Below are positions 22,253 through 50,607 of a stretch of 64,000 nucleotides of DNA, one piece after another. Made by a program: the position numbers and the translations under genes. Source of the DNA: Leucoraja ocellata (Eukaryota); the NCBI GenBank assembly GCA_036785375.1, contig JAWMAR010000094.1:6820001-6884000 (forward strand), written 5' to 3'. Each line of letters starts with the position of its first letter. Within the stretch, counting starts at the first letter, position 1. The notes beneath the pieces were generated by a model, which ran no database searches, was not told where the DNA came from, and was given only the letters and a program-made list of their open reading frames with translations.

Positions 22253-22304
22253 ATGGCCCCAGCGCTGCACCTACTGTGGACTCTGCTGCTGCTGCTCCCT
22301 ACAG
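22253..22304 (+). CDS. Ig light chain leader exon (MAPALHLLWTLLLLLPT-G)
   Basis: ATG at 22253, hydrophobic signal peptide, phase-1 donor AG|GTGAGA at 22305. In frame with acceptor GAAG|G at 22699/22700. Confidence 0.88.
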
Positions 22305-23920: not shown

Positions 23921-24021
23921 AGCTACATTCGCAAATTCACATTCAAGCGAATTCCAGAGCTGGGGTCAGTGTGTGGCGCTGCCGGCGGTCTCCATCAACT
24001 AACAATGCCTCTCTTCTCTTC

Positions 24022-24340
24022 CGCCTCTCTCTCGCTTCTCCTGCTCCCTCCGTCTCCGGAGGAAACTGGCACGGGCTCGGCCACACTCAGCTGTCTGGTG
24101 AGCGGCTTTAAACCGGGCCTCGTGGCGCTGCGCTGGGCCGTGGACGGCGTGGAGACGGAGAGCGGGGTGACGACGGGCGCCGTATCACCGGACGCCGAGC
24201 AGACGTACAGGCTGAGCAGTTACCTGCGGGTCCCCGCCGCCGCGTGGGACAAGGGCACGAGCTATTCCTGCAGCGTAGCCCATAGCTCTCTGGGCTCGCC
24301 TCTCCGCCACACCGTCTCCTCATCATCTTGCGCGAACTGA
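24022..24340 (+). CDS. Ig light chain constant exon (sigma-cart class); normal acceptor apparently missing, 5' boundary uncertain
   Basis: LLLPPSPEE..SATLSCLVSGFKPG..W..YRLSSYL..W..YSCSVAH..SSSCAN*. Both C1-set cysteines and the C-terminal interchain Cys are present. Confidence 0.88.
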
Positions 24341-29143: not shown

Positions 29144-30416
29144 AGGTGGGAGCTGGAGATTGGGTGTAAAGAATAAGGAAAGACAGGACGCCGAGTTTAA
29201 TGCTGCATACCGATATTGTATGTGCCGTAAGGCTCGCTGAATGGTTAGAGAAGTGTAAATATATATATATGGAGATGGTCGGGGTGCAAAGACTTATGTA
29301 GTGAAGTAAGAAATTCCAACCGGTTAAACAGCGTTTTTCATTGAGACCAGTTATTCAATTATAGAGCAGTACTGCACATGAACAGGCCTTTCAGGTCACC
29401 TTACCCCTGCGACCAAGTTGGCATACCAGGCAAGTCACATTTGGTTGTAAGCTGTGGGCCGAGCTTCGAAAATGTGTCTAGAATTTAACTTTCGTCACCC
29501 ATGTCTGTGAACTACTTGAAACTTTGAACATATTTAGATATAATTGAGAAGGAAGTTATACCTCGTCAGTGGCAAAAGTTGCATTTTAATTAATTAAGCC
29601 AATTAGAATATGATATCGAAAAAGTAGGCAGCATCTAGTGCCCATATTAATCCATGGGGAGCCTAATTCTGTGCTGCTGTTTGTTTAAACCATATATATA
29701 CTACTGAATATGAGTGTAATTATATATAATTATATTATATAAATATAATATATAAATATAATTATATAAATATAATATAACAAATATAAATGTGAGTGTG
29801 TATGTTGAGTGAGACTGCCGCAGAGGTCGGGGTCCTGAACCTGCCTAATTAATGTGTGAGGGCAGTTCCTGTGGGTTCCCACCTTTACTGAACCCCACTG
29901 ACTGCCAGTTTGCAGAGTGGGGGTCACGGCCATAGTGGGACTGGGGCAGTGCCAGGCTGGGAGAAGACTAAGGCATCTTCCACTGACAGGAAAATGCATA
30001 ACCCTAACCCTAACTCGCCCCCTTCCAGAGCTGTCCACGGCTGGAGCTGAAGCCGTTTTGGGCTCCGGAAGTGTGGCTGCTGAGCGCGTTCAACTCGGCC
30101 AGCATGCTCTTTTGGATCATCATGGTGATGATGGTGGGGAGCAGCACTGCCCTGCACGCCGTCCGGGCCGCCTTTAGCACCCCCATAGTGCCGGCTCTGT
30201 CAGTTGGCCCGCTCGTTCGTTGCCACACCGACCGTCCGACAGCCCGAGCAACCCCTCACAACATGTACCGGTGGCCCGGCAGCCCGACCGGCCCTTCACA
30301 GCATCCACCGGCTCACCGGCAGCCCTACCGACCTTTCACAGCACTCACCGGCAGCCCGACCGACAGACTGGTCGACTGATCGACTGACTTCTGGCTGACC
30401 GACCGACCGACTGACT

Positions 30417-33400
30417 TGTTGTGGTTCGTTTCTCTTAAACAGACAAAAACACAAATACAATCAGTAATCAAGCATTACATCAGTAATAAATCTTTATTTC
30501 GCCATGCGGGTGTGGTAAGACTCTTACAGTATGTAGATACAGACTATACAGAGTAATCCCACACAAAGGGCAGTGATTAAGTACATGCGTTTATATTCCA
30601 ATAATCAGCGATTCAGCTATACCTTATAACCATATAACAATTACAGCACGGAAACAGGCCATCTCGGCCCCACAAGTCCGTGCCGAACAACATTTTTCCT
30701 TTAGTCCCACCTGCCTGCACTCATACCATAACCCTACATTCCCTTCTCATCCATATGCCTATCCAATTTATTTTTAAATGATACCAACGAACCTGCCACC
30801 ACCACTTCCACTGGAAGCTTATTGCACACTGCTACCACTCTCTGAGTAAAGAAGTTCCCCCTCATGTTACCCCTAAACTTCTGTCCCTTAATTCTGAAGT
30901 CATGTCCTCTTGTTTGAATCTACCCTATTCTCAAAGGGAAAAACTGATCCACATCAACTCTGTCTATCCTCTCATCATTTTAAAGACCTCTATCCAGTCC
31001 CCCCTTAACCTTCTGCGCTCCAGAGAATAAAGACCATGGTACAGCTTCTTGCTTCTTAAGATTGACAGCTTCTTAAGATTGACAGGTTCTTTCGAGAGAG
31101 GAAGAGTTAGCCATATATGGTTATATGAGGCGGCTATTTTCCTTCAGAACAAGAATTTTGTTTTGTTTTTACAGAATGCGCACATTATAATCTTATAGAG
31201 CAAGGGTAAGAGCCGAGAGTCCGAACAGCCTCTAAATGTTTATATAATGGAGGAGACATTCATGAACTTGTGCTTGTGATCTCACTTGTATTATTGGAAA
31301 AAGGCCCATAAACAACGTGTTAGCCTTGTTAGTATAATAAGAGCAAGGGTTAGAGCATTCTGCTGGCTTTGCAATTAATAAGAGAAAGGTTACAGCCTGT
31401 CTTAGTTTCAGCTGAACCAATGTTTGTAAAGTTTGGGCTGTTTGGACTCTGTAGACTGGACAATGTTCAGGGACTCGGCAACGGACCTGAACGAATACGC
31501 CACAGTCGTCACAGACTTCATTAATAAATGTGTGGATGACTGCATCCCTACAAAAACCCTCTGAGTGTTTCCCAATCAGAAACCTTGTATGAACTTTGCA
31601 ATCCGCACCATTCTGAAGACCAGACACCGGGCATTCATGTCTCATGATACAGTGGTCTACTAGAAGTCCAGGTACGACATTGGTAAGGTCATCAAAAAGG
31701 CCAAAAGGGACTTCTGCTCCAAGCGGGAGGATGAGACAGATGTTCGGCAGCTGTGGCGGGGCCTGAATGCAATCACCTCCTACAGGGCAAAATCAGGAGG
31801 CAGCTCGAATGTCAGCGAAACATCACTCCCTGATGAGCTCAATGCATTTTACACACGCTTTGATAGGGAGAACACTGATGTGCCTTCTCGAGACCCCATT
31901 CGCTGTGATGGTATTTCAGCCTCAGTCACAGAGGCCGATGTCAGGAAATCCCTCAGAGGGGTGAACCCTCGAAAAGCGCCTGGACCTGATGGTATACCCG
32001 GTCGTGTTCTAAACACCTGTGTGGACCAACAGGATGGAGTTTTTGCAGACATTTTCAACCTTTCACTTCTGAGGTCTGAGGCTCCCACCCGCTTTAAAAG
32101 GGCATCAATTATACCGGTGCCCAAGAAGAGCAAGGTGACTTGCCTCAACGACTATCGACCAATGGCACTATTGTCGGTGGCGATGACGTGCTAAGAGAGC
32201 TTGATCATGGCGCAAATCAACTCCTACCTCGACAAAAAACTGGACCCACTGCAGTTTGCTTACCGCCACAACAGATCAATGGTGGATGCGATCTTGCTGG
32301 CTCTCCACTTGGGCAACAAAAACTCATATGTCAGGCTGTTATTCATTGATTATAGTTTGGCATTTAATATAATCACCTCTTGCAAGCTGGTTAGCAAGCT
32401 CTCAGATCTGGGTCTCTGCGCATCCCTCTGCAAATGGATCCTCGACTTCCTAATTCAAAGACCACAGACTGTTCGTATTGGTGGAAATGTGTCAGCCTCG
32501 ATAACAATCAGCATGGGAGTACCTCAAGGCTGGGAGCTCAGCCCCCGGTATGCTCACTCTATACTCATGACTGCGCAGCCGGTCATATTGCGAATTCCAT
32601 CATCAAGTTCACTGACGACACCATTGTTGAGACGTTCACTGATGGGGACGAGTCAGAGTATAGAAGTGAGATCGACCGACTGACCAAATGGTGCCAGCAC
32701 AACAACCTTGCCCTCAACACCAGCAAAACCAAGGAACTGATTGTGGACTTCGGAAGGGGTAGGATGGGGACCCACACTCCCGTTTATATCAACGGGTCGA
32801 TGGTGGAGAAGGTCAAGAGCTTTAAATTCCTGGGCGTGCATATTTCTGAAGATTTTTCCTGGTCCGAGAACACTGAATCAATTATTAAGAAAGCACATCA
32901 GCGGCTCTACTTCCTGGGAAGATTATGGAGAGTCGGTATGTCAAAGAGGACTCTCTCAAACATCTACAGGTGCACAGTAAAGAGCATGCTGACTGGTTGC
33001 ATCGTGGCTTCGTTCGGCAACTTGAGTGCCCAGGAGCGGAAAAGACTACGAAAAGTAGTAAACACTGTCCAGTCAAATCATCGTCTCCGACCTCCCTACC
33101 ACCGAGGGGATCAATTGCACTCGCTGCCTCAAAAAGGCTGGCAGCATCATCAAGGACCCACACCATCCTGGCCACACACTGATCTCCCCGCTACCTTCAG
33201 GAAGAAGGTACAGGAGCTTGAAGACTGCAACGTCCAGGTTCAGAAATAGCTACTTCCCCACAGCTATGAAACTAAACTGAAACAAATCTCTGAACACTAA
33301 TAGACTATTATCTGTTTATTTGCACCTTATCTGCTTATTTATGGATGTATGTATATATTTATATAATGGTGTATGGACTCACTGATATGATGTGTTCTGT

Positions 33401-33520
33401 ATTCGTGCCTACTATATTCCGTTGTGCTGATGCAAAGCAAGAAGTTCATTGTCCTATCTGGGACATATGACAAACTCTCTTGACTTGACTTGACATTATC
33501 AGTTTATGATAGCATTCACA
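30417..33520 (-). mobile_element. 3' LTR of an endogenous retrovirus (interrupted by CR1 30625-31035 and Rex1 about 31430-33495)
   Basis: 30420-30625 and 31035-31190 are homologous to 49889-50260. Minus-strand TATAAA (30590-30595) and AATAAA (30493-30498); ends ...CCACAACA. Inferred start TGTGAATG at 33520 follows a short GGGGAT purine run. Confidence 0.75.
31430..33495 (+). mobile_element. Rex1/Babar-clade LINE, defective
   Basis: [43 protein letters not shown]; (CTTGA)n tail. Confidence 0.9.
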
Positions 33521-33544
33521 ATCCCCGGTAGGTACAAAATGGTC

Positions 33545-33762
33545 GAAAACAGTTCACAATAAAAATTAGAGCGATGATTAATAAAACAATAGAGCCATAT
33601 TATAATATAGTATTCCAAAGTCCATCAAGCCAACTGAATGGCCAGAATTTCCCATGTTATTTCATTGTACCCATGCATGTCACTGTCAACCTTATGGGTG
33701 TTCTCAATTTCTTGGGAAATGTGGGTAGCAAGGTCATTTATATTAGAGGATTCGTCAGGGAT
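33545..33762 (-). pseudogene. env: retroviral env TM-subunit remnant
   Basis: Manual translation: IPDESSNINDLATHISQEI..., then after a frameshift WPFSWLDGLWNTIL*YGSIVLLIIALIFIVNCF (Trp-rich membrane-proximal segment plus TM helix). Lies immediately before the 3' LTR. Confidence 0.7.
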
Positions 33763-34378
33763 CTTGGCACATCACTCGTCTTATTATAATACAAGTGCCA
33801 CTTTGTTAATGTTTATGATCAATACTTATTACATGGTAAGAAAGATTTTTAATATACAATAGTTGTAAAACAGTTAACACGATTTTGTACAAAGATTATT
33901 AAGAATTGAGAATGGAGCTGTCAACTATCTTTATGCAGCCCTTATAAAAAAATGAAGAGTAATATGTAGAATTCATTCGTTTCAGTCTGCTACCGTTAAC
34001 TCTTATACACATTTCCCCTTTAATTGCTTCATGCCATTTATCCAAGACTGTGGGATCTGCAGATTAGGTTTAATTAGCTTCTTTAAGAGATTAACATCCA
34101 TAAATTCAAATATTACAAGATGCCATGAACTAGAAGCATTATGTAATTTGGTACTTACATTATTGTAATTTGGTTTTGAATCTGTCCTTGAGCTCGTAAG
34201 GGGTTATGGCACAAACCCAAAATCCTAATCAGATAAAGAAGTTTGTTTACTTCATCGCACCTAGTTCACTGCTGAACACTTCTATAATAGTAGCCCTTCG
34301 CCGTTACAGCGCGTAAGCAGGTTGGCATGTTATTCCACCACTGCTGGCAACGCCACAGAACAATAGGCTATCGGTATT

Positions 34379-34800
34379 TATGCAGGGATATGGGGAAAAA
34401 GGCTGAACATGGGTCAATTACTGTAAAGGTGTCGGCTTCTGTTGTTATAGATGACAGAATAATATTGGTATCAGGTACCAAAGGACTATTTTAAATAGCT
34501 CTCAGGTCTTAGGCAAAACACCATTCATTACATCTTCCCACTTTCGGGATCTATTGCACAGACTTTGCACTTTCACTAATAGTGCTTGTTGCAATAAAGC
34601 CAACCATGTCACCCATAAAGACTATAGCTGTCCCTTCTTCAGCCTCCGAGGCCAGTCAATTTAAAAAACAATCATGGTAAGGCAGCTCCACTTTTTTTAT
34701 AGTCAGCTTATGTTCAGGGGCTGAATACACTCATCCCACATGGCTGATGCGTTGCCCATAGTTTGTAGAGTACTTGGACTAGAGCCATAGTGGGCAGATC
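34379..34800 (-). pseudogene. pol: retroviral reverse transcriptase N-terminal remnant (gamma/epsilon-like)
   Basis: Manual translation: LWATH..HVG..SA.., EAEEG, LLQQ.LL..QSLCN, PKVGR.NEW.F.*DLRAI, PLVPDTNIILSSI, FTVIDPCSAFFPISLH. Confidence 0.82.
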
Positions 34801-35129
34801 CTCAGTAGGCAGCTGTTGCTTTCCATAGTGTCCCATTCCTATCTGACACGTGTGATCTTTCCTTCTGTGTCATTGGCAACTTAGAACATGAATTGTATGT
34901 TTGTCCTTCAGCCATTTATCATTTTTTGCTATTTCTTTCGCTGTTACTGGAGGTCGAATAGTTACCATTAAGTGTGAGTCAGAGGAGTCTCTCATTTCAA
35001 ATCGATCCCTCTGGTTTTATTCCTTATCCCGGGACCCCAAAGAACAAATAAGAGGTCACTGTTAATTGGTCAAATTTATTCAACCAGGGGGAGTCTCGTT
35101 CTGTTGTTTATACTCTTGGTTTATACTCT

Positions 35130-35548
35130 CTAGAATTTAGGAGATTGAGAGGGGATCTTATAGAAACATACAAAATTCTTAAGGGGTTGGACAGGCTAGA
35201 TGCAGGAAGATTGTTCCCGATGTTGGGGAAGTCCAGGACAAGGGGTCACAGCTTAAGGATAAGGGGGACATCCTTTAAAACCGAGATGAGGAGAACTTTT
35301 TTCACACAGAGAGTGGTGAATCTCTGGAACTCTCTGCCACAGAGGGTAGTTGAGGCCAGTTCATTGGCTATATTTAAGAGGGAGTTAGATGTGGCCCTTG
35401 TGGCCAAGGGGATCAGAGGGTATGGAGAGAAGGCAGGTACGGGATACTGAGTTGGATGATCAGCCATGATCATATTAAATGGCGGTGCAGGCTCGAAGGG
35501 CTGAATGGCCTACTCCTGCACCTAATTTCTATGTTTCTATGTTTCTAA
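35130..35548 (+). mobile_element. CR1 3' end
   Basis: ORF 35145-35450 is the RT C-terminus; (CTATGTTT)n tail. Confidence 0.92.
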
Positions 35549-35734
35549 GTATCCGGGATTAGGGAGGCAAGTATATAATTCAGTGCTGTGCGTTTGCTTA
35601 TGTTCATGGCTGGTTTTAACAAGATACCGTAAATACTGGCCTTTTTATAATTGTGTGTATGGCTTCCTTTTACCTCCAGTCTTGCAGGAGGACATCCAAA
35701 TTAATACTTCCTTTTCCCAGTTTCCAATTATTTT

Positions 35735-35990
35735 GCAATAAATTAGGTGTATCCAAGGAGGATTATTTTCGACCTTCACTGAAGGTAGATGTAGTCAGCA
35801 GTACTGGGAAGTGCTTCTTCCACCGTTCTCCCAATTTCCTCCGCTCCCAATTTCTTATCAGTACGTTATCTCGTGGTTGTAAGGATTTGCCGTTATGGTC
35901 AGCTGATAGTGGTTTCTGCGTTTCTCTGGTTCAGAGGTTCCTGTAAGACTAACAAGGTTCTGGTCAATTGCTGTGCATACGTAATGAATG
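35735..35990 (-). pseudogene. pol: retroviral integrase C-terminal remnant
   Basis: Manual translation: LQPRDNVLIRNWERRKLGERW..HFPVLLTTST.VKVENNPPWIH..CK, matching the QPGDWVL..W.GP(F/Y).VLLTT.TAVKV..WIH..CK module. Confidence 0.8.
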
Positions 35991-36539
35991 CACACTAAGG
36001 TCCTGCCCAGTCCCAGTCAAGGATTGACTTAAACTATTTAACTACTTACAAGGTAGACCCTTTAAAAATAGCTCATTATAAAGAAAAACAATTTAAAAAT
36101 GATTCCCAATTCTCATCCAATTCTCATTCAATCTGAATTCCAGTGCGTAATTCAGACCTCTCTTCAATTCAATTCAAAAGGTAAGAAGTAGGAAGAAATC
36201 AAACAAAAGATAGAGACAAGGTTACCAAACCTCATGCCAGGTTATGCGGTGAAGAAATGAACAGTGTCTTTGCTGATCTACATCCGCTGCTTAATGAAAG
36301 TTGAGAAGACAGAGAATGTATAGTTAATTTCTAGATAGATAGCCATTATATTTTCAAAGAGCTAAGGAAACCAAAATAACTTTGTCCCAGGCTCAACACC
36401 CAATACAGCTGCAACTTCTTAAAGATACATTACCTTTTAGAACACATGAGACTCTATAAAGATTTATCACGTAAATGTGCAAGCCTTTCAATGACATCCT
36501 ATTTCATCTGAATTATATGACTAATTCAACATTCACCTA

Positions 36540-38133
36540 CAGTGGCTTGCAAAAGTATTCATACCCCTTGAACTTTTCCACATTTTGTCACGTTACAACC
36601 ACAAATGTAAATGTATTTTATTGGGATTTTATGTGATAGACCAACACAAAGTGGTGCATAATTGTGAAGGAAAGGAAAATGATACATGGTTTTCAAATTT
36701 ATTTACAAATAAAAAACTGAAAAGTGTGGCATGCAAAAGTATTCAGCCCCCCCCCGAGTCAATACCTTGTAGAACCACCTTTCGCTGCAATTACAGCTGC
36801 AAGTCTTTTGGGGTATGTCTCTACCAGCTTTGCACATCTAGAGACTGACATTTGTGCCCATTCTTCTTTGCAAAATAGCTCAAACTCAGTCAGATTGGAT
36901 GAAGAGCGTCTGTGAACAGCAATTTTCAAGTCTTGCCCGAGATTCTCAATTGGATTTAGGTCTGGACTTTGACTGGGCCATTCTAACACATGAATATTCT
37001 TTGATCTAAACCATTCCATTGTAGCTCTGGCTGTATGTTTAGGGTCGTTGTCCTGCTGGAAGGTGAACGTCCACCCCGGTCTCAAGTCTTTTGCAGACTC
37101 TAACAGGTTTTCTTCCAAGATTGCCCTGTATTTGGCTCCATCCATCTTCCCATCAACTCTGACCAGCTTCCCTGTCCCTGCTGAAGAAAAGCATCCCCAC
37201 AGCATGATGCTGCCACTACCATGTTTCACAATGGGGATGGTATGTTCTGGGTGATGTGCAGTGTTAGTTTTCCGCCACACATAGCATTTTGCATTTAGGC
37301 CAAAAACTTCAATTTTGGTCTTATCTGACCAGAACACCTTCCTCCACATGTTTGCTGTGTCCCCCACATGGCTTGTGACAAACTGCAAACGGGACTTCTT
37401 ATGGCTTTCTTCTTGCCACTCTTCCATAAAGGCCTGATTTGTGGAGTGCACGACTAATAGATGTCCTGTGGTCAGATCTTCCCACCTGAGCTGTGGATCT
37501 CTGCAGCTCCTCCAGAGTTACCATGCTTGGCTGCTTCTCTGATCAATGCTCTCCTTGCCCGGCCTGTCAATTTAGGTGGACGGCCATGTCTTGGTAGGTT
37601 TGCAGTTGTGCCATACTCTTTCCATTTTCGGATGATGGATTGAACAGTGCTCCGTGAGACGTTCAAAGCTTGGGATATTTTTTTATAACCTAACCCTGCT
37701 TTAAACTTCTCCACAACTTTATCCCTGACCTGTCTGGTGTGTTCCTTGGGCTTCATGATGCTGTTTGTTCACTAATGTTCTCTAACACACCTCTGAGGCC
37801 TTCGCAGAACAGCTGTATTTATACTGAGATTAGATTACACACAAGTAGACTCTATTTACTAATTAGGTGACTTCTGAAGGCAATTGGTTGCACTGGATTT
37901 TAATTAGGGGTATCAGAGTAAAGGGGGCTGAAGACTTTTGCACGCCACACTTTTCAGTTTTTTATTTGTAAAAAAATTTGAAAACCATGTATCATTTCCC
38001 TTACACCACAATTATGCGCCACTTTGTGTTGGTCTATCACATAAAATCTCAATAAAATACATTTACGTTTGTGGTTGTAACGTGACAAAATGTGGAAAAG
38101 TTCAAGGGGTATGAATACTTTTGCAAGCCACTG
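36540..38133 (-). mobile_element. Tc1-family transposon copy B, full length, defective
   Basis: TA|CAGTGGCTTGCAAAAGTATTCATACCCC...GCAAGCCACTG|TA; about 200-bp TIRs with internal repeats. Transposase 37756-36759 ([22 protein letters not shown]) broken by small deletions. Confidence 0.95.
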
Positions 38134-38604
38134 TAGTACTGGTTCCACAAACAAGTAACAGTATTTAAACTCACTCACTCTTTCTGTGCCATTCACTCAC
38201 AAATTTCCACACCTCGTGCAATATGCTAAATCTCAAATATTCACACACGTTAAGGTAATACAATTCTCACTCAAAGAGTAAAACAGTTATACACTCCTCA
38301 AGGAAATTGTGCCAAACTCTTAAAACTTTGATACACCCAAAATGATAAATTTACATTTTAATATATGATATTATTAGGCAAAGGCACTAGGTCTTGTGGA
38401 CCTTGTTGTGAACCTTGACCAAGCTAGCTTTGGAGAATTATGAAACAGAAGCCTTATCTTTCTTAACTATAATTTAAGAAAAACAATTATATAGCTGTGC
38501 TGTAGACAAGATTCATACATAGGCTGTATCAGAGGAAAATGTTATTTGTCAGCCAGCCATTTTACATAACCCTGAGTTTATACCACTAGAGGTATAGGAT
38601 TTTA

Positions 38605-40830
38605 TTAAAAGCTTCAAACAGACTCACAACCACGAGACAGCCTTCATTGTTGCGGGTGACTTCAATCACTCCAACCTGAAGACTGTACTCCCCAAATTCC
38701 ACCAACATGTCTCCTTCGCCACTAGAGAAGACAAGACACTGGACAAAGTCTACACTAACATTGCTGAAGCTTACAAAGCTGTCCCCCTCCCCCAACTTGG
38801 TCAGTCTGATCACCTTTCACTGTTCCTGCTCCCAAAGTACTCCCCACTTATCAGACGGGTTAAACCCACTTTGAGGACCCTGACTCCCACACGAACATTG
38901 ATTCCTATGCATCCTCTGTTCTGGAACTTATAAACTCCGCCATCAACAGTGTCACCTCCCTCAAGCGGGTGACCATATTCCCGAATCAGAAGCCATGGAT
39001 GAACTGCGAGGTCAGGCTACTGCTGAAAGCACGGGACACCGCTTTCAGGTCAGGTGATGCTCGAGCCTACAGTTCATCCATGGCTAACCTGAAGAGGGGC
39101 ATGAAGATGGCCAAGCACTGCCATAAGCTCAGAATTGAGGAGCACTTCAAAAACAACTCCGACCCCCGACGCATGTGGGAAGGCATCCAGGCCATCATGA
39201 ACTACAGACCCTCCACCATCACCCCGACATCCAGCGACGCCTCCTTCCTTGAGGAGCTTAATCACTTCTATGGCCGCTTCGACAGGGACAATCTAGAGAC
39301 AGCCATCAAGGCTGTGCTACCTGCTGATCACCAGCCCCTCACACTCACCCCCTACGACGTATACGTGACACTGAGTAGGACTAATGCACGTAAGGCTGCT
39401 GGCCCTGACGGCATCCCCGGGTGCGTGCTCAGGGCCTGTGCTACGCAGCTGACAGACATCTGAACTGACATCTTCAACCTGTCACTTGCCCAAGCAGTTG
39501 GCCCCACTTGCCTTAAAACCACCTCCATCGTGCCAGTGCCAAAACACTCCACTGCGGCAAGCCTCAATGACTTCCGCCCAGTTGCACTTACTCCCATCAT
39601 CACCAAGTGCTTCGAGAGGCTGGTCCTGGCACACTTCAAAGGCTGCTTACCCCCCACATTGAATCCCTATCAGTTTGCCTACCGCAAGAACAGGAGTACG
39701 GAGGATGCCATCTCAATGGCACTTCACTCCGCCCTCTCCCACCTCAACAACAGAGACACTTACGTAAGAATGCTGTTCATCGATTACAGCTCAGCATTCA
39801 ACACCATTATACCCTCTAAACTGATCACGAAACTCGGTGACCTGGGCATCGACCCCTTCCTTTGCAACTGGATACTGGACTTTCTAACCAACAGACCACA
39901 GTCTGTTAGGTTAGACAAGCACACCTCTTCAACCCTCACCCTGAACCCCGGTGTTCCACAGGACTGTGTGCTGAGCCCCCTCCTCTACTCCCTCTTCACC
40001 TACGACTGCACACCTGTACATTGTACTAACACCATCATCACGTATGCAGACGATACAACGGTGATTGGCCTCATCAGCAACAACGATGAGTTGGCCTTTT
40101 GGGAGGAGGTCCAGCTCCTAGCAGCATGGTGCGCTGACAACAACCTGGCCCTTAACTCCAAGAAGACCAATGAGCTCATTGTAGACTTCAGGAAGTCTAG
40201 GGGCGGCACGCAAACCCCCATCCACATTAACAGGATGGAGGTGGAACGTGTTTCCAGCTCCAGGTTCCTGGGGATCAACATCTCCGATGACCTCTCTTGG
40301 ACCCACAATACCTCAACTCTGGTCAAGAATCCTCACCAGCGTCTCTTCTTCCTGCGGAGACTGAAGAAGGTCCATCTGTCTCCTCAGATTCTGGTGAACT
40401 TCTACCGTTGCACCATCGAGAGCATCCTTACCAACTGTATCACAGTGTGGTATGGCAACTGCTCTGTCTCCGACCGGAAAGAACTGCAGAGGGTAGTGAA
40501 AAGTGCCCAACGCATCACCGGTTCCTCGCTCCCCTCCATTGAGTCTGTCCAAAGCAAGCGTTGTCTGCGAAGGGCGCTCATCATCGCCAAGGTCTGCTCT
40601 CACCCCAACCATAGACTGTTTACCCTCCTACCATCTGGGAGAGACCCCCCCCCAGACGTCCTCCCACCAGGAAAAACACTATGACTGTATGCATGTAAAT
40701 AGATTTATTTATTGCACATATCCTATGTCGCTCTTCCAGGGAGATGCTAACTGCATTTCATTGTCTCTGTACTGTGCACGATAGTACAGTATAATGACAA
40801 TTAGAGTTGAATCTGAATCTGACTCTGAAT
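38605..40830 (+). mobile_element. Rex1/Babar-clade LINE, 5'-truncated, defective
   Basis: [46 protein letters not shown]; (GAATCT)n tail. Confidence 0.92.
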
Positions 40831-41157
40831 CAAAGTGCAAGCTACTATCCACATTCTCTTCCCTCTTTATCAGCATGCGTAAGGAAGTGTATATAGTGCA
40901 AAAGAAAAACAACATCAGGTACAAATTTAATATGGAAGTTGCAGGAAGGCATAATTGTGTAATAAAATTTATCAGCTCCTCCTGCATCCCCCATTATTAT
41001 CCCTGCTAAAATAAATTTCAAATGTCGCAAATGAATTTGTCTTGATTTACATTCTAAACAGAAACCAAACAGCACATTGTTGCTGTTTCTTTACAATTCT
41101 CAACAATCCTCACAACATAATTAATTATCTTTACATTCCTTTGGCTGAAAGAGCCAT

Positions 41158-44100
41158 TATAACCATATAACCATATAACAATTACAGCACGGAAACAGGC
41201 CATCTCGGCCCTACAAGTCCATGCCGAACAAATTTTTTTCCCCTTAGTCCCACCTGCCTGCACTCGTACCATAACCCTCCATTCCCTTCCCATCCATATG
41301 CCTATCCAATTTATTTTTAAATGATACCAATGAACCTGCCTCCACCACTTCCACTGGGAGCTCATTCCACACCACCACCACTCTCTGCGTAAAGAAGTTC
41401 CCCCTCATATTACCCCTAAACTTCTGTCCCTTAATTCTGAAGTCATGTCCTCTTGTTTGAATCTTCCCTATTCTCAAAGGGAAAATCTTGTCCACATCAA
41501 CTCTGTCTATCCCTCTCATCATTTTAAAGACCTCTATCAGGTCCCCCCCTTAACCTTCTGCGCTCCAGAGAATAAAGACCTAACTTATTCAACCTATCTC
41601 TGTAACTTAGTTGTTGAAACCCAGGCAATATTCTAGTAAATCTCCTCTGTACTCTCTCTATTTTGTTGACATCCTTCCTATAATTTGGCGACCAAAATTG
41701 TACCCCATACTCCAGATTTGGTCTCACCAATGCCTTGTACAATTTTAACATTACATCCCAGCTTCTATACTCAATGCTCTGATTTATAAAGGCTAGCATA
41801 CCAAAAGCTTTCTTTACCACCCTATCTATATGAGATTCCACCTTCAAGGAACTATGCACGGTTATACCCAGATCCCTCTGTTCAACTGTATTCTTCAATT
41901 CCCTACCATTTACCATGTATGTCCTATTTTGATTTGTCCTGCCAAGGTGTAGCACCTCACATTTATCAGCATTAAACTCCATCTGCCATCTTTCAGCCCA
42001 TTTTTCCAAATGGCCTAAATCACTCTGTAGACTTTGGAAATCCTCTTCATTATCCACAACACCCCCTATCTTGGTATCATCTGCATACTTACTAATCCAA
42101 TTTACCACACCTTCATCCAGATCATTGATGTACATGACAAACAACAAAGGACCCAACACAGATCCCTGAGGCACCCCACTAGTCACCTGCCTCCAACCCG
42201 ATAAACAGCCATCCACCATTACCCTCTGGCTTCTCCCATTCAGCCACTGTTGAATCCATCTTGCTATTCCTGCATTTATACCCAACAGTCGAACCTTCTT
42301 AACCAACCTTCCATGAGGAACCTTGTCAAAGGCCTTACTAAAGTCCATATAGACAACATCCACTGCTTTACCCTCGTCAATTTCCCTAGTAACCTCTTCA
42401 AAAAATTCAAGAAGATTAGTCAAACATGACCTTCCAGGCACAAATCCATTTTGACTGTTCCTAATCAGACCCTGTTTATCTAGATGCTTATATATATTGT
42501 CTCTAAGTATCTTTTCCATTAATTTGCCCACCACTGAAGTCAAACTAACAGGTCTATAATTGCTAGGTTTACTCTTAGAACCCTTTTTAAACAATGGAAC
42601 AACATGCGCAGTACGCCAATCCTCGGGGACTATTCCCGTTTCTAATGACATTTGAAATATTTCTGTCATAGCCCCGGCTATTTCTACACTAACTTCCCTC
42701 AATGTCCTAGGGAATATCCTGTCAGGACCTGGAGACTTATCCACTTTATATCGACTAGAATCTTTGGTGCTAAAAAGCTGTACATGAATTGGAACATGCC
42801 AATATATACTAGGTACCTAAAAAGGTACCATATTATTGTACTTACTTCTAATAAAAATAAAACATAAAAAAAAAGGAATCTTTGGTGCTGTGGGGACCAA
42901 TGTGCAGAATTCGTAATCTGCTGTGTGGGCAATAATGTCAGCAGGGACATTATCTGGGAGACTTTTCTAATTTCTTTCTTAAGATTCTTTTAACATTCTT
43001 GATACTCCTCAAGCACCTCATTTAATCCATGCTGCCTATAATTGTAGATCTCTCTCTTTTTCCGAACCGTCCAATTTCCCTTGGCTCTTTCCAATTTTTA
43101 CTCTTTCCTTTCAACCGAACAGGAAAGATTCTGTACTCTTAAAATTTCACCTTTAAATGTCTTCCATTTCTCTTCTACATTTCCATTTCCATTTCTCTTC
43201 TACATCCTCCCCATGAAACAAAAAGACCCAATTCACTCCATTTAAATCCTTTCGCATCTCCTCAAAGTTAGCCTTTCTCCAATCAAAAATCTCAACCCTA
43301 GGTCCAGTTCTGACCTTCACCATAATTATATTGAAACTAACGGTATTGTGATCACTGGACCCGAAGTGCTCCCCAACGCATACCTCTGCCACCTGACCTG
43401 TCTCATTTCCTAACAGGAGGTCCAGCATCGCCCCTTCTCTAGTAGGTACCTCTATGTATTGCTGCAAAAAACTATCCTGCACACATTTTACAAACTCCAA
43501 ACCATCAACCCCTTTTACAGAATGTGTTTCCCAGTCTATGTGTGGAAAATTGAAATCTCCCACAATCACTACCTTGTGCTTACTACTAATATCTGCGATC
43601 TCCTTACATATTTGCTCTTCCAATTCTTGCTCCCCTTTTGGCGGTCAATAATACACCCCTATAAGTGTTGCTACCCCTTTCCCATTTCTCAGTTCCACCC
43701 AAATAGCCTCTCTAGATGAGCCCTCTAATCTATCCTGCCAAAGCACTGATGTAATATCTTCCCTGACAAGCAATGCAGCACCTCCACCTCTTGCCCCTCC
43801 AATTCTCTCACACCTGAAGCAACGAAATCCTGGAACATTTAGTTTCCAATCACAGCCCTCCTGCAACCATGTTTCACTGATCGCCACAACATCATACTTC
43901 CAGATGTCAATCCATACTCTAAGCTCATCCACCTTTATTACAATGATCCTAGCATTAAAATATACACATTTAAGAAACCCACCACCTCTTATTCTCTGTT
44001 TATTATCTTTTTCTTCTTTCCCCCCTACATGTTGGGTCCAAGTGCTTCCCTTCTCTGACTCCTGCCTCACACACTGACTACTAGCTTTCCCTATTTGAGT

Positions 44101-45238
44101 CCCTCCCCCCAACCGTTCTAGTTTAAAGTCTCCCCAGTAGCCTTTGCAAATCTGCCCGCTAGGATATTGGTCCCCCTTGGGTTCAAGTGCAACCCGTCCT
44201 TTCTGTACAGGTCACACTTTCCCCAAAATAAGACCCAGTGATCCAGAAACTTGAATCCCTGCCCTCTGCACCAGTCCTTCAGCCACGCATTTATCCCCCA
44301 CCTCGCTCCATTCCTACTCTCACTGTCTCGTGGCACAGGCAGTAATCCTGAGATTATTACTTTTTTGGTCCTTCTCCTTAACTCTCCTCCCAACTCCCTA
44401 AATTCTCCTTTCAGGACCTCTTCTCCTTTTCTACTTATGTCATTGGTACCGATATGTACCACGACCTCGGGCTCCTCTCCCTCCCATTTCAGGATTTCTT
44501 GGACGTGTTCAGACACATCCCAGACCCTGGCACCAGGGAGGCAAACTACCATCCGGGTCTCTTGACTGCGTCCACAGAATCGCCTATCCGACCCCCTAAC
44601 TATAGAGTCCCCTATTACTATTGCCCTCCTCTTCTTTTCCCTACCTTTCTGAGCAACAGGGCCGGTCTCTGTGCCGGAGACCCGGCCTCTGTCACTACCC
44701 CCAGGTAAGCTTCCCCCCCCCCCCCCCCCTACCGTACTCAAACGTGAGAACTTATTTTCAAGGTGTCCAGCCACTGGGGTACTCACTAGTCCCTGCCTCT
44801 GCCCCTTGCCCTTCCTAACTGTGACCCACTTGTCTGCCTCCCGTGGTCTTAGAGTGACCACCTCCCTATAACTCCTCTCTATAACCTCCTCATTCTCCCT
44901 GACCAGACAGAGGTCATCAAGCTGCTGCTCCAGGTTCCTAACACAGTCCATTAGGAGCCCCATCTCGACGCACCTGGTGCAGATGTGGACGTCTGGAGGG
45001 CTATCACACTCCATGACCTCCCACATCTGACATCCAGAACAGTAAACTGCCCCGGCCCTCATTCTCCCCCCTTATCCTGGATCCAATTCAAAGCCTTATC
45101 CGGGATACAAGCCAATCAGCTGCTTCCTCTAGACCGCTTCCACCGATCAGCGGCTTCCTCAAGCCCACTTAATTTGAAGTGTGATCTGCGAATGGAACGT
45201 TGCAGAGTCCCTCACCAATGGCTCCTGGGCCTCTGTTC
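41158..45238 (-). mobile_element. near full-length CR1 LINE copy 1 (ORF1 zinc finger + SGNH esterase; ORF2 EN-RT)
   Basis: ORF1 44118-45062 (CxxC..CxxC, GDSIVRG, HIGTND, DGLHL). EN 43153-44112, RT 41524-42744 (YADD). Possible short TSD AATGG. Confidence 0.95.
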
Positions 45239-45504
45239 CATTTGTTTAATATTATGTTGGCCAACCATATTCTCTCATTTTTTATTTACAATGCCATTTT
45301 TATGTTTTCCTTGACCCAAATAACACATATGCAGTATCGAAGCTCCCATGTACCGGAACTCGCAAATGTTCCGAATCTCCCACATGAACCGAAACTCCCA
45401 CTTTACTCTTATCCCGAGCCCATCCTATTACCGGCTCAATAACGGCTTAATACTTCAGACAGCCTACTTAGTCTGATTCACCAATCCCAAAAATGGTCTT
45501 ACCT

Positions 45505-48500
45505 TATAACCATATAACCATATAACAATTACAGCACGGAAACAGGCCATCTCGACCCTTCTAGTCCGTGCCGAACACATATTCTCCCCTAGTCCCATAT
45601 ACCTGTGCTCAGACCATAACCTTCCATTCCCTTCCCGTCCATATAACTATCCAATTTATTTTTAAATGATAAAAACAAACCTGCCTCCACCACCTTCACT
45701 GGAAGCTCATTCCACACAGCCACCTCTCTGAGTAAAGAAGTTCCCCCTCATATTATCCCTAAACTTCAGTCCCTTAATTCTCAAGTCATGTCCCCTTGTT
45801 TGAATCTTCCGTACTCTCAGTGGGAAAAGCTTTTCCACGTCAACTCTGTCTATCACACTCATCATTTTAAAACCCTCTATCAAGTCCCCCCTTAACCTTC
45901 TGTGCTCCAAAGAATAAAGCCCTAACTTGTTCAACCTTTCTCTGTAACTTAGTTGCTGAAACCCAGGCAACATTCTAGTTAATCTCCTCTGTACTCTCTC
46001 TATTTTGTTGACATCCTTCCTATAATTAGGTGACCAAAATTGTACAACATACTCCAGAATTGGCCTCACCAATGCCTTGTACAATTTTAACATTACATCC
46101 CAACTTCTATACTCAATGCTCTGATTTATAAAGGCCAGCACACCAAAAGCTTTCTTTACCACCCTATCTACATGAGATTCCACTTTCAGGGAACTGTGCA
46201 CAGTTATTCCCAGATCCCTCTGTTCACTTACATTCTTCAATTCCCTACCATTTACCATGTACGTCCTATTTTGATATGTCCTGCCAAGATGTAGCACCTC
46301 GCACTTATCAGCATTAAACTCCATCTACCATCTTTCAGCCCACTCTTCCAACTGGCATAAATCTGTCTGTAGACTTTGAAACTCTACTTCATTACCCGCA
46401 ACCCTACCTATCTTAGTATCATCTGCATACCTACTAATCCAATTTACCACACCATCATCCAGATCATTGATGTACATGACAAATAATAGTGGACCCAACA
46501 CAGATCCATGTGGCACCCCACTCGTCACTGGCCTCCAACCTGACAAGCAACCATCCACCATTACTCTGTGGCATCTCCTATTCAGCCACTGTTGAATCCA
46601 TCTTGCTACTCCACCATTAATACCTAACCATTGAACCTTCTTAACCAACCTTCCATGAGGAACTTTGTCAAAGGCCTTACTGAAGTCCATATACACAACA
46701 TCCACTGCTTTACCCTCATCAATTTCCCGAGTAACATCTTCAAAAAATTCAAGAAGATTAGTCAACCATGACCTTCCAGGCACAAATCCATGTTGCTGTT
46801 CCTAATCAGACCCTGTTTATCCAGATGCTTATATATATTATCACTAAGTATTCTTTCCATTAATTTGCCCACCACTGACATCAAACTAACAGGTCTATAA
46901 TTGCTAGGTTTACTCTTAGACCCCTTTTTAAACAATGGAACAACATGCGCAGTATGGCAATCCCCCTGCACTATTCCCGTTTCTAATGACACTTGAAATA
47001 TTTCTGCCATAGCCCCTGCTATTTCTACACTAACTTCCCTCAATGTCCTAGGGATTATCCTGTCCGGACCTGGAGACTTATCCACTTTTATATTTCTCAA
47101 AAGTGTCAGTACTTCCTCTTCTTTGAGTCTCATAGTTTCCATAGCTACTCTACTTGTTTCCCATACCTCACATAATTCAATATCCTTCTCCTTGGTGAAT
47201 ACCGAAGAAAAGAAACTGTTCAATATCTCCCCCATCTCTTTTGGCTCTGCAGATAGTTGTCCACTCTGACTCTCTAATGGACCAATTTTATCCCTCGTTA
47301 TCCTTTTGCTATTAATATAGCTGTAGAAACCCTTTGGATTTACTTTTACTTTACTTGCCAAAGCAACCTCATATCTTCTTTTAGCTGTTCTAATTTCTTT
47401 CTTAAGATTCTTTTTACACTCTTTATACTCCTCAAGCACCTCATTTACTCCATTCTGCCTATAATTATTGCAGATCTCCCTCTTTTTCCGAACCAAGTGT
47501 CCAATTTCCCTTGAAAACCATGGCTCTTTACAATTTTTACGATTTCCTTTCAACCGAACAGGGACATAAAGATTATGTACTCTTAAAATTTCACCTTTAA
47601 ATGTACTCCATTTCTCTTCCACAACTTTCCCATAAAACAAACTGTCCCAATTTACTCCTTTTAAGTCCTTTCGCACCTCCTCAAAGTTAGCCTTTCTCCA
47701 ATCAAAAATCTCAACCCTAGGTCCAGTTCTGTCCCTCTCCATAATTATATTGAAACTAATGGTATTGTGATCACTGGACCCGAACTGTTCCCCAACGCAT
47801 ACCTCTGCCACCTGACCCATCTCATTTCCTAACAGGAGGTCCAGCACCACCCCTTCTCTAGTAGGTACTTCTATGTATTGCTGCAAAAAACTATCCTGCA
47901 TACATTTTACAAACTCCAACCCATCCAGCTCATTTACAGAATGTGTTTCCCAGTCTATGTGTGGAAAATTGAAATCTCCCACAATCACTACCTTGTGCTT
48001 ACTACTAATATCTGCAATCTCCTTACATATTTGCTCTTCCAATTCTCGCTCCCCATTTGGCGGTCTATAATACACCCCTATAAGTGTTGCTACCCCTTTT
48101 CCATTTCTCAGTTCCACCCAAATAGCCTCCCTAGACGAGCCCTCTAATCTATCCTGCCAAAGCACTGCTGTAATATCTTCCCTGATAAGCAATGCAACAC
48201 CTCCACCTCTTGCCCTCCCAATTCTATCACACCTGAAGCAACGAAATCCTGGAATATTTAGTTTCCAATCACAGCCCTCCTGCAACCATGTTTCACTGAT
48301 CGCCACAACATCATACTTCCAGGTGTCAATTCAGACTCTAAGCTCATCCACCTTTCTTGCAATGCTCCTAGCATTAAAATATACAAATTTAAGAAACCCA
48401 CCCTCTCTTATTCTCTGTTTATTGTCTTTTTCTTCTCTCTCCCCTACATTTTGGGTCAGAGTGCTACCATTCTCTGCCCCCTGCTTCACACACTGACTGC

Positions 48501-49655
48501 TAGCTTTCCCAATTTGAGTCCCTCCCCCCAACCATACTAGTTTAAAGTCTCCCCAGTAGCCTTTGCAAATCTCCCCGCTAGGATATTGGTCCCCCTTGAG
48601 TTCAAGTGCAACCCGTCCTTTCTGTACAGGTCGCACCTTCCCCAAAAGAGGTCCCAATGATCCAGAAACTTGAATCCATACCCACTGCACAAGTCCCTCA
48701 TCCACGCATTTATCCTCCACCTCGCTCCATTCTTACTCTCACTGTCGCGTGGCACAGGCAGTAATCCTGAGATTGTTACCTTTCCAGTCCTTCTCCTTAA
48801 CTCTCTACCTAACTCCCTAAATTCTTCTTTCAGGACCTCTTCTCTTTTTTTACCTATGTCATTGGTACCTATATGTACCACAACCTCAGGCTCCTCTCCC
48901 TCCCATTTCAGGATTTCTTGGACCCGTTCAGACACATCCCTGACCCTGGCACCAGGGAGGCAAACTACCATCCGGGCCTCCTGTCTGCGTCCACAGAATC
49001 GCCTATCCGACCCCCTGACTATAGAGTCCCCTATTACAATTGCCCTCCCCTTCTTTTCCTTACCCTTCTGAGCAACAGGGCTGGTCTTTGTGCCAGAGAC
49101 CCGGCCGCTGTCGCTGCCCCCAGGTAGGCTGTCTCCCCCACCCTTACTCAAGCATGAGTACTTATTTTCAAGGTGTACAGCCACCGGGGTACTCACCAGT
49201 CCCTGCCTCTGCCCATTGCACTTCCTAACTGTGACCCAGTTTTCTGTCTCCCGTGGTCTTGGAGTGAGCACCTACCTGTAACTCCTTTCTATGACCTCCT
49301 CGCTCTCCCTGAGCAGACAGAGGTCATCGAGTTGCTGTTCCAGGTTCCTGACACGGTCCCTTAGGAGCCCCATCTCGACGCACCTGGCGCAGATGTGGAC
49401 GTCTGGAGGACACTCCGACTCCATGACCTCCCACACCTGACATCCAGAACAGTAAACTGCCCTGGCCCTCATTCTCCCCCTTATCCAAATACAATAAAGC
49501 CTTACCCGGGATACAAGCCAATCAGCTGCTTCCTCTGGTCCGTTCGACCAATCAGAGGCTTCCACCAGCCTTCTTAATTTGAAGTGTGAGCTGCGAATGG
49601 AACGTTGCAGATTTTGGTTCCTCCTCCCTCTGTAACGGCTCCTGGGCCTCTGTTG
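45505..49655 (-). mobile_element. near full-length CR1 LINE copy 2
   Basis: Same architecture as copy 1 (ORF1 about 48537-49471, ORF2 about 45707-48400) with a few stops and frameshifts. Confidence 0.95.
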
Positions 49656-49866
49656 AGACAAGCCCCGCGATGGGTTTTTACCTTGTGTTGTCTGTTCCGA
49701 AAGATCTTGGCAGGGAACCAGATCACTTCGGACGAAGGGCCACAGTGTTCCCCGGTACTCTGAGGAGTTCAAACACAAGGGGTCTGATAATGCACTTTCT
49801 TTCCCCCTTCGAGAAACCGGCCAAACTGTAGCCAATTACTCAGTCTTCAGCGATTGTTTCAAGCAG

Positions 49867-49884
49867 ATCCTGCCGACTGCACCA
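49867..49884 (-). promoter_or_regulatory. retroviral primer-binding site, tRNA-Ser
   Basis: TGGTGCAGTCGGCAGGAT is 16/18 identical to the complement of the vertebrate tRNA-Ser(AGA/TGA) 3' end as I recall it (TGGCGTAGTCGGCAGGAT). Directly follows the LTR end. Confidence 0.8.
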
Positions 49885-49885
49885 A

Positions 49886-50260
49886 CATTGTGGTTGGTTC
49901 CTCTCAAACAGACAAAAATGCAAATAAAATCAGTAGTCAAGCATTGAAATCTTTGTATCGCCAGAAGGGTGTGGTAAGATTCTTACAGTATGTAGATACA
50001 GACTCTGCAGAGTAATCCCACACAAAGGGACAGTGATTAAGTACATTTATTTATACGCCAATAATCATTAATTCAGCAACACCTTATCTACAGTGCATAG
50101 TACAGCCTCTTGCATCTTTTGCATCTTAAAATTGGCAGCTTCTTAAGATTGACAGGTTCTTCCCAGAGAGGAAGGGTTAGCCATGTATGGTTATATGAGA
50201 AGGCTATTTTTCTGCAGAACAAGCATTTTGTTTTGTTTTTTACTGAATGACGCACATTAT
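49886..50260 (-). mobile_element. 5' LTR of the endogenous retrovirus (U3 truncated at a CR1 insertion)
   Basis: Homologous to 30417-31190; followed by the PBS. Confidence 0.8.
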
Positions 50261-50264
50261 TCAG

Positions 50265-50607
50265 CACACGGCTTGTACTCACCAGAATTTAGAAGATTGA
50301 GGGGGGAACTTATAGACACTTACAAAATTCTTAAGGGGTTGGACAGGCTAGATGCAGGAAGATTGTTCCCGATGTTGGGGAAGTCCAGAACAAGGGGCCA
50401 CAGTTTAAGGGTACTTTTAGGACCGAGATGAGAAAAACATTTTTCAGACAGAGAGTGGTGAATCTGTGGAATTCTCTGCCACATAAGGTAGTTGAGACCA
50501 GTTCATTGGCTACATTTAAGAGGGAGTTAGATGTGGCCCTTGTGGCTAAAGGGATCAGGGGGTATGGAGAGAAGGCAGGTACAGGATACTGAGTTGGATG
50601 ATCAGCC
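50265..50607 (+). mobile_element. CR1 3' fragment
   Basis: GLYSPEFRRLRGELI motif and CR1 3' UTR. Confidence 0.85.

What the first reader, a model, noticed from the sequence alone, without database searches (positions are those of the whole stretch)
30417..50260. Hidden 20-kb fossil endogenous retrovirus primed by tRNA-Ser
Seen on the minus strand, in order: 5' LTR, PBS, leader, integrase HxxxH (HFLTH 40875-40889), CxxC-like motif (about 38494-38519), integrase C-terminus (35747-35885), RT, env TM, short purine run, 3' LTR. It is fragmented by two near-full-length CR1s, two Rex1s, a Tc1 and two CR1 ends, so the ORF track misses it. Motifs resemble gamma/epsilon-like fish retroviruses. The LTRs look roughly 85% identical by eye, implying an old insertion and giving a relative chronology for the nested elements. 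It lies about 6 kb from an Ig gene.
Basis: partly seen in the sequence, partly recalled or inferred. Interest (0 to 1): 0.72.

Follow-up and report, generated by a model that had tools for sequence, protein, structure and literature searches.

The report
Scrambled, gutted skate endogenous retrovirus
This is the real but gutted fossil of an ancient fish-type retrovirus, most likely in a skate, broken up by seven later transposons; its one oddity is a piece of the reverse-transcriptase gene sitting out of order, in front of the envelope remnant.

Summary
A retroviral fossil is there, but it is not a whole provirus. Shown: two LTRs (K2P 0.128, 95% CI 0.088-0.173), a PBS matching 16 of 18 bases of tRNA-Ser(AGA/TGA), an integrase C-terminus whose closest named relative is a skate ERV protein, and an epsilon-like RT N-terminal fragment. 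Env TM support is marginal. Only 4.1 kb of the 20 kb is internal element DNA; the rest is LTRs and seven LINE/Tc1 inserts. Gag, protease and the integrase core were not detected; the CxxC is unsupported and HFLTH marginal. No TSD or convincing PPT was found. The RT piece lies downstream of integrase, out of order. Contigs of four runs show many copies about 10% diverged, some lacking the CR1 end (4 of 4 runs) or the Tc1 (1 of 4). Best reading: an old copy of a non-autonomous, rearranged class I ERV family, copied in trans (0.6). Rival: damage at this locus only (0.3). A known kind of element; modest interest.

The parts
49886..50260 (-). 5' LTR (TATA-like box 50046-50055); its first bases are lost or hidden where a CR1 fragment abuts at about 50270
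   Evidence: search for the missing start beyond the CR1 fragment gave background
49867..49884 (-). Primer-binding site, 16 of 18 bases complementary to the 3' end of tRNA-Ser(AGA/TGA)
   Evidence: (tRNA table in PMC10359600)
49655..49866 (-). Leader; no Gag or Pol homology
   Evidence: other copies (place 49772)
45501..49654 (-). Insert: full-length CR1-type LINE #1 (GDSL-esterase ORF1, endonuclease, RT; 8-base tail repeat). Family name recalled from this anatomy
45238..45500 (-). 263-base element piece; an RT-thumb-like octapeptide at its start is not significant (3 of 40 shuffles)
41157..45237 (-). Insert: full-length CR1-type LINE #2, K2P 0.09-0.10 from #1
40830..41156 (-). Element piece holding HFLTH (40875-40889), a marginal integrase zinc-finger remnant
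   Evidence: multi-copy (record 16)
38590..40830 (+). Insert: 5'-truncated Rex1-type LINE #1 (RVT_1 plus ALKBH8_N; family name recalled; left edge approximate)
38137..38590 (-).
   Evidence: diverged copies (records 5, 6, 13)
36538..38136 (-). Insert: Tc1 transposon, about 215-base inverted repeats (K2P 0.048), TA on both sides
   Evidence: absent from other copies in run X3 (table 5c)
35990..36536 (-). T-rich element piece without Pol homology
35720..35985 (-). Integrase C-terminal domain remnant (MLVIN_C type), in two frames
35102..35549 (+). Insert: CR1-type 3' end
   Evidence: joint 35101/35549 in 4 of 4 runs
34810..35101 (-). Element piece of unknown origin (no protease or SU hit)
34362..34809 (-). 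Epsilon-like RT N-terminal fragment (fingers to motif A, DLR type), ending about 53 residues before where YxDD would be; out of order
33480..34360 (-). Env-like remnant: RLKR furin-like site 33977-33988, broken cysteine-loop region about 33760-33800, heptad-like stretch, membrane anchor 33555-33611
   Evidence: motifs by eye; marginal scores; top hydropathy window, 2.63
31420..33490 (+). Insert: Rex1-type LINE #2 (edges approximate)
31190..31420 (-). 3' untranslated piece; 5-base purine run 31229-31233 followed by TG, an unproven PPT and LTR start
31036..31188 (-). 3' LTR, upstream part
30621..31035 (-). Insert: CR1-type 3' end inside the 3' LTR only, so younger than integration
30417..30627 (-). 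3' LTR, downstream part, with AATAAA at 30493-30498, ending in CA
   Evidence: host junction matched without a difference by run X1 (record 1)

Best explanation
One old, now inert copy of a non-autonomous class I (epsilon-like) ERV family, probably of skates. Steps: (1) an epsilon-like retrovirus primed by tRNA-Ser entered the germ line (shown by PBS, IN and RT homology); (2) a defective genome arose, most likely by template switching during reverse transcription, that lost gag, protease and most of pol and put an RT 5' piece between the end of integrase and the env 3' half (order shown, cause inferred); (3) it kept LTRs, PBS and leader and was copied in trans by helper proviruses to tens of sites (multi-copy state shown roughly, trans-mobilisation inferred); (4) this copy landed about 6 kb from an Ig light-chain cluster, its LTRs drifted about 13% apart, and seven LINE/Tc1 elements later inserted (shown for the LTR-internal CR1 end, the CR1 end at 35102-35549 and the Tc1; inferred for the other four). 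It encodes nothing now.
For: LTR pair, PBS, IN-C, RT-N. Internal control: the closest relative's IN C-terminus scores 210 while its IN core, usually better conserved, scores 27-31 (background) on all 4 upstream pieces, so the core is missing, not merely decayed. The pieces without Pol homology are themselves multi-copy: records with about 10% differences at 38141-38394, 35965-36184, 40961-41160, and a joint across the Tc1 site. The RT piece and env piece are covered to similar summed depth as the IN piece (bins 33635-34968 and 35636-36302: 459-2,593, single contigs mostly 10-55). A joint across the CR1 end links the integrase side to the piece before RT in 4 of 4 runs. Relatives end Pol 13-34 residues after the WIH-like motif in 4 of 4 proteins where it was found (3 more had no match), so the parent had the normal order. 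Deleted and recombinant ERVs that multiplied are documented (passages of PMC8278194 and PMC4724089).
Against: No displayed contig bridges 34809-34855 (just before RT) or 34376-34448 by 31 bases on each side; only 32 of about 551,700 pieces and 15 of 3,514 joints (plus 12 rows of table 5c) were shown, and the tool states that summed depth is no copy number. One X14 copy departs from the window upstream of 34660 (record 11). No joint across either full-length CR1 site was displayed, so loss of gag-pro-RT could be local. No TSD. Env support is marginal. Skate Ig light-chain clusters are themselves many (at least 89 type I clusters, abstract of PMC2192082), so some copies could be segmental duplicates.
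Confidence: 0.6

Rival explanations
1. Same virus family, but the deletions and the misplaced RT piece are damage at this locus after integration: for example recombination between CR1 copies removed gag-pro-RT, or two neighbouring proviruses were fused by deletion so that the two LTRs are not a pair.
For: Both full-length CR1s sit exactly where the large gaps would be. No TSD; the 5' LTR start is cut by another CR1 fragment. LTR divergence of 0.128 gives a very old age at published shark rates. No displayed contig bridges the RT edges.
Against: Pieces without Pol homology are multi-copy and joined across the Tc1 and CR1-end sites in other copies; X3 record 20 runs from inside the IN C-terminus to the CR1 site in a copy about 10% diverged. 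The missing IN core is not at a CR1 site.
Confidence: 0.3
2. The parent was a retrovirus lineage with integrase placed before RT in Pol, as in Copia and Gmr1 elements, later truncated.
For: The observed order is IN C-terminus, about 465 element bases, RT N-terminus, on one strand. The same reordering is known in Gypsy elements of the Gmr1 clade (passage of PMC8220671).
Against: The closest IN relatives stop 13-34 residues after the WIH-like motif, and the window's frame stops about 30 codons after it. The RT piece breaks off before YxDD. An RT-thumb-like octapeptide lies upstream, in the normal place, though not significant.
Confidence: 0.04
3. A class III ERV-S-type element (XtERV-S, HERV-S), which also uses tRNA-Ser and carries a class I env; or a Gypsy element with chance env-like motifs.
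For: XtERV-S has a tRNA-Ser(AGA/TGA) PBS and a gamma-type TM (passages of PMC8278194). No class III or Gypsy RT was among my 18 references.
Against: The RT piece has the DLR form of the motif, which that paper's table gives for MLV, against DYR for XtERV-S, ERV-L and foamy virus. The IN end is of the MLVIN_C type. Scores are highest against epsilon-type RTs (86-107), lower against gamma-type (48-72), delta-type (37-46) and LINE RTs (30-31) (group labels from my recall and the tree).
Confidence: 0.05

Closest known systems
Epsilon-like class I ERVs of cartilaginous fish (CmiERV lineages II/III, PMC4422223; clade Mu, PMC6001957)
   Same: Host group, class I IN C-terminus, epsilon-leaning RT, LTR-bounded.
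   Different: Those were defined on Pol with downstream Env, LTR divergence 0.024-0.033; this copy lacks most of pol, has RT out of order and LTR divergence 0.128. No direct sequence comparison was made (their supplementary sequences were not opened).
Unannotated skate and bamboo-shark ERV gene models (XP_078286998.1 Rhinoraja longicauda; XP_072406404.1 Chiloscyllium punctatum)
   Same: 54% and 42% identity over the IN C-terminal piece.
   Different: The Rhinoraja model begins with a stretch 62% identical to a zinc-knuckle Gag protein; no Gag was detected in the window element.
XtERV-S and its 19 deleted copies (PMC8278194)
   Same: tRNA-Ser(AGA/TGA) PBS, gamma-type TM, a family of internally deleted copies.
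   Different: Class III pol (DYR motif, dUTPase); its deleted copies keep the gag 5' end and have 5-base TSDs; no displaced RT piece was seen in the passages read.
Non-canonical, recombinant HERVs such as Harlequin (PMC4724089)
   Same: Mosaic internal structure ascribed to co-packaging and template switching, sometimes multiplied afterwards.
   Different: Those mix groups mostly in gene order; here a pol 5' piece is moved behind integrase.
Gmr1 clade of Gypsy elements (PMC8220671 citing Goodwin and Poulter 2002)
   Same: Integrase upstream of RT.
   Different: There it is a working Pol order in a Gypsy element; here the fragments are retroviral, short and separated by a stop.

Membership tests
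Endogenous retrovirus (Retroviridae) | Paired direct LTRs | tested here: met
Endogenous retrovirus (Retroviridae) | 18-base tRNA PBS next to the 5' LTR | tested here: met
   16 of 18 to tRNA-Ser(AGA/TGA) listed in PMC10359600; the host's own tRNA set was not available
Endogenous retrovirus (Retroviridae) | Retroviral Pol homology | tested here: met
   IN-C score 154 and RT-N score 114, shuffle maxima 39 and 38, 0 of 40 each; fragments only; the RT piece alone gave no Pfam or PDB hit
Endogenous retrovirus (Retroviridae) | env downstream of pol | tested here: inconclusive
   ordered motifs and an anchor; 0 of 40 shuffles for 1 of 4 Env proteins, 1 of 40 for a profile; no library hit
Endogenous retrovirus (Retroviridae) | TG...CA LTR ends, PPT and target-site duplication | tested here: inconclusive
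   3' LTR ends in CA, 5' LTR has TG there; starts not fixed; no TSD; 5-base purine run
Complete (autonomous-type) provirus | gag, pro and full pol in the order PR-RT-RH-IN | tested here: not met
   no Gag, PR or IN core; RT piece after IN
Class I (gamma/epsilon-like) ERV | GPY/F-type IN C-terminal domain (PMC1224870) | tested here: met
   MLVIN_C match; relatives carry it strongly; the motif's own letters are altered in this copy
Class I (gamma/epsilon-like) ERV | RT groups with gamma/epsilon RTs; DLR motif | tested here: inconclusive
   DLR present and scores highest for epsilon types; the 60-residue tree put it on a very long branch without resolution; no class III reference was held
Epsilon-like clade Mu | RT phylogeny with epsilonretroviruses | tested here: inconclusive
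   score ranking only
Class III ERV-S (XtERV-S, HERV-S) | tRNA-Ser PBS | tested here: met
Class III ERV-S (XtERV-S, HERV-S) | Class III RT (DYR motif) | tested here: not met
   DLR form
Non-autonomous multi-copy ERV family | Several independent insertions sharing the same defective structure | tested here: inconclusive
   diverged copies and shared joints, but no whole copy seen; no host genome held
Gmr1-like IN-before-RT elements | Continuous Pol frame from IN into a complete RT | tested here: not met
   stop after IN, RT ends before YxDD

The most novel reading that the evidence does not exclude
The fossil records a retrovirus lineage of cartilaginous fish whose Pol placed integrase before reverse transcriptase, the Copia/Gmr1 order, which I know of in no retrovirus (recall; one search showed none in its listing). 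A milder version, a non-autonomous family that spread with an RT piece lodged in front of env and whose copy here may be over 100 million years old, has about 0.5 probability and would deserve about 0.45.
Probability: 0.04. Interest if true: 0.85.

Novelty: new variant of a known kind. Interest (0 to 1): 0.33.

Why it matters
Epsilon-like ERVs in cartilaginous fish and deleted or mosaic ERVs in general are known, so the main finding is ordinary paleovirology. Three points have some value: a class I element primed by tRNA-Ser (the PBS label otherwise tied to class III ERV-S); an LTR divergence four to five times that of the two dated elephant-shark ERVs, which makes it a candidate very old insertion and a marker for skate phylogeny; and a probable family-wide displaced RT fragment, a record of template switching followed by spread in trans. 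There is no evidence that it affects the nearby Ig gene.

Tried and rejected
No host genome was held; no tRNA genes in the window. Word-index homologue searches with the IN piece and with an env piece found nothing. PDB search with the IN piece gave MLV integrase only at E 0.066, below chance hits to designed TIM barrels; env and RT pieces gave nothing in PDB or Pfam. The ESM Atlas gave no result for the env piece, so that route is untested. A 24-base LTR motif had 0 matches in metagenome contigs. Search for the missing 5' LTR start and a TSD beyond the abutting CR1 fragment: 113-265 of 300 shuffles as good. Protease or SU identity for 34810-35101: background. RT palm or thumb continuing into 33480-34360: background, 8 of 20. 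A tree of the 60-residue RT piece was uninformative. Earlier scan notes: nothing by sequence, place or words. Paper searches listed no description of this family or of an RT piece behind integrase in a fish ERV; the library lacks most subscription papers, and Repbase and Dfam could not be searched. PMC8672886 and PMC10587355 passages gave nothing usable. Rejected: that the RT signal comes from the LINE inserts (their RTs score 30-31 on the piece); that the 20 kb hides a full provirus.
Full report
Layout. Self-comparison of the window and a Pfam scan of 118 stop-to-stop frames (92 of the 96 found at 45 residues or more in 31100-41300, plus 26 longer ORFs elsewhere) resolve the interval on the minus strand into: 5' LTR, PBS, leader, full-length CR1 #1, a 263-base piece, full-length CR1 #2, a 327-base piece, Rex1 #1, a 454-base piece, Tc1, a 987-base piece ending in the integrase C-terminus, a CR1 end, a 1.6-kb piece, Rex1 #2, about 230 bases, and the 3' LTR split by a CR1 end. 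Internal element DNA sums to 4,116 bases. The names CR1 and Rex1 are recalled from the domain content; Tc1 rests on Pfam transposase hits, inverted repeats and TA flanks. Every Pfam RVT_1 hit in the interval lies in a LINE insert.

LTRs and PBS. The LTR halves align at 352 sites with 25 transitions, 16 transversions and 7 indels; K2P 0.128, bootstrap 95% interval 0.088-0.173. The 3' LTR ends in CA at 30417; the 5' LTR has TG in that place. A CR1 fragment abuts the 5' LTR at about 50270, and no remainder of the LTR or TSD was found beyond it. The 18 bases at 49867-49884 match 16 of 18 of the 3' end of tRNA-Ser-AGA-1-1 and -TGA-2-1 as printed in a table of PMC10359600 (passage; the same 3' fragment appears in PMC7330628, passage; position checked). 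The host's tRNAs could not be checked.

Pol. A 55-residue stop-free frame at 35766-35930 hits Pfam MLVIN_C (E 8.7e-5, under the gathering score) and 5 of 1.84 billion representatives at E up to 0.001; four are MLVIN_C proteins and one (P0005) is a repetitive match that I dropped. The two named ones come from Rhinoraja longicauda and Chiloscyllium punctatum. With 17 natural IN, Gag and Pol proteins, tblastn over the whole window finds the IN end (best E 1.9e-14) and, with 4 of the 5 full-length Pols, an RT N-terminal piece at 34362-34655 (best E 8.6e-5); 5 of 6 retrovirus loci from IMG/VR hit the same piece more weakly. A Pol profile with a frameshift-tolerant scorer gives 154 for IN-C and 114 for RT-N against shuffle maxima of 39 and 38 (0 of 40 each); the other six domain tests gave 0 of 40 for the HFLTH piece (34 against 33), 3 of 40 for an RT-thumb-like octapeptide, and background for IN core (two pieces), protease and RT palm. 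The closest relative's IN core is at background on 4 of 4 upstream pieces while its C-terminus scores 210; a related Gag is at background on 5 of 5 pieces. Among 18 reference RTs the piece scores 86-107 against five epsilon-type ones, 58-78 against four other fish, frog or unnamed ones, 48-72 against seven gamma-type, 37-46 against two delta-type, and 30-31 against the window's LINE RTs (group labels partly recalled). It has the DLR motif, which the table in PMC8278194 gives for MLV against DYR for class III (passages). It begins near the RT start and ends about 53 residues before YxDD. Retroviral Pol runs RT-RH-IN (established knowledge), so the piece is displaced.

Env. In separate frames 33480-34360 shows a furin-like RLKR, a broken cysteine-loop region, a heptad-like stretch and a membrane anchor in TM order (by eye). 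The anchor is the most hydrophobic 19-residue window scanned. Scores: 55 against the Env of L001 (0 of 40 shuffles), 42 against L005 (1 of 40), background against two more; a three-Env profile reached 1 of 40 and its plus-strand control also beat 10 of 10 shuffles at a lower score. Pfam, PDB and the homologue search gave nothing. Env is probable from position and order, not proven.

Other copies. Twenty of 24 listed runs hold part of 33490-36530, none half of it; four were laid on 30300-50290 at 85% likeness. Run X1 matches 212 bases across the 3' host junction and 452 bases of LTR and leader without a difference. Run X3 has four pieces with 21 differences in 952 letters (2.2%, gaps aside), one crossing the CR1 #2 edge by 37 bases, which suggests the same insertion in a second organism. 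All runs also hold contigs about 6-12% diverged on internal pieces, and the three insert-free bins have summed depths of 459-2,593 where single contigs are mostly 10-55: roughly tens of copies, with the tool's warning that this is no copy number. A joint that skips the CR1 end (35101/35549) is present in 4 of 4 runs, and one that skips the Tc1 in X3. These show that the flanking pieces are contiguous in other copies and that those inserts came later. No displayed record bridges the two edges of the RT piece, one X14 record departs upstream of 34660, and no joint across the full-length CR1s was shown; the tables were cut to a small part of what was laid.

Age and order. At 0.5e-9 per site per year (assumed for catshark in PMC10699275, passage) the LTRs give about 128 million years (88-173); at 2.2e-10 (assumed in PMC4422223, first part of the text) about 290. 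Both rates are assumptions from other species, and the pair is unconfirmed by a TSD. Relative yardsticks are safer: about six times the X1-X3 difference, 2.7 times the Tc1 repeat divergence (0.048), and four to five times the elephant-shark ERVs (0.024, 0.033). No insert lies within another, so they cannot be ordered among themselves by nesting; sibling divergences run from 0.046 to 0.152.

Mechanism and verdict. The best reading (0.6) is a defective genome made by template switching, multiplied in trans, then decayed here; the main rival (0.3) is local damage, including fusion of two proviruses. An integrase-before-RT virus, as in the Gmr1 Gypsy clade (PMC8220671, passages), is unlikely (0.04) because relatives end Pol right after IN. 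Class III ERV-S shares the PBS but fails the RT motif (0.05). Epsilon-like ERVs occur in nearly all jawed vertebrates (PMC6001957, passages), and recombinant ERVs that multiplied are common in humans (PMC4724089, passages); the GPY/F marker is from PMC1224870 (passages). Supplements of PMC4422223, PMC6001957 and PMC10699275 were not opened and may hold related elements. The host is inferred to be a skate from the closest named relative and from the neighbouring germline-joined light-chain gene (abstract of PMC2192082). The locus is a genuine fossil of a known kind with one unusual rearrangement: interest 0.33.

Noticed in passing
window 22253-24340 (+): Ig light-chain gene with leader exon, a V exon already joined to J (open through the J motif to a GT donor) and a C exon; fits germline-joined type I light chains of skates (type assignment recalled). 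The ERV points toward it on the opposite strand.
   Followed up: partly
window 740-2293 (+): 517-codon stop-free frame with an RNase H domain (Pfam PF00075, E 3.8e-11); no retroviral Pol hit of note; probably another retroelement in good condition.
   Followed up: no
window 2392-3600: Second Tc1 copy, K2P 0.046 from the one inside the ERV, running into an assembly gap (N at 3601-4461).
   Followed up: partly
window 56173-57168 (+): 331-codon frame with Pfam TNP-like_RNaseH_C (E 3.6e-9), a DNA-transposase remnant next to a Rex1-type copy at 57230-58582.
   Followed up: no
window 30236-30352: 40-base GC-rich tandem repeat (2.9 copies) in the host flank just beyond the 3' LTR, within a 121-codon frame with no Pfam hit.
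   Followed up: partly
run X14 laid on window 33794-34604 and 40961-41160: Depth per contig on ERV pieces is several times higher than in X1 (for example 2,186 over 9 contigs; one record at 313), hinting at younger, near-identical copies of the family in organism D.
   Followed up: no
proteins P0012, P0013: Alligator Ig-superfamily gene models that carry an MLVIN_C integrase domain; either a gene-model artefact or an exonised ERV piece.
   Followed up: no
proteins P0003, P0007: A Rhinoraja gene model joins a Gag-like start to integrase pieces, and an unnamed 566-residue Gag with one zinc knuckle is 62% identical to it: better-preserved relatives of this ERV group exist.
   Followed up: partly
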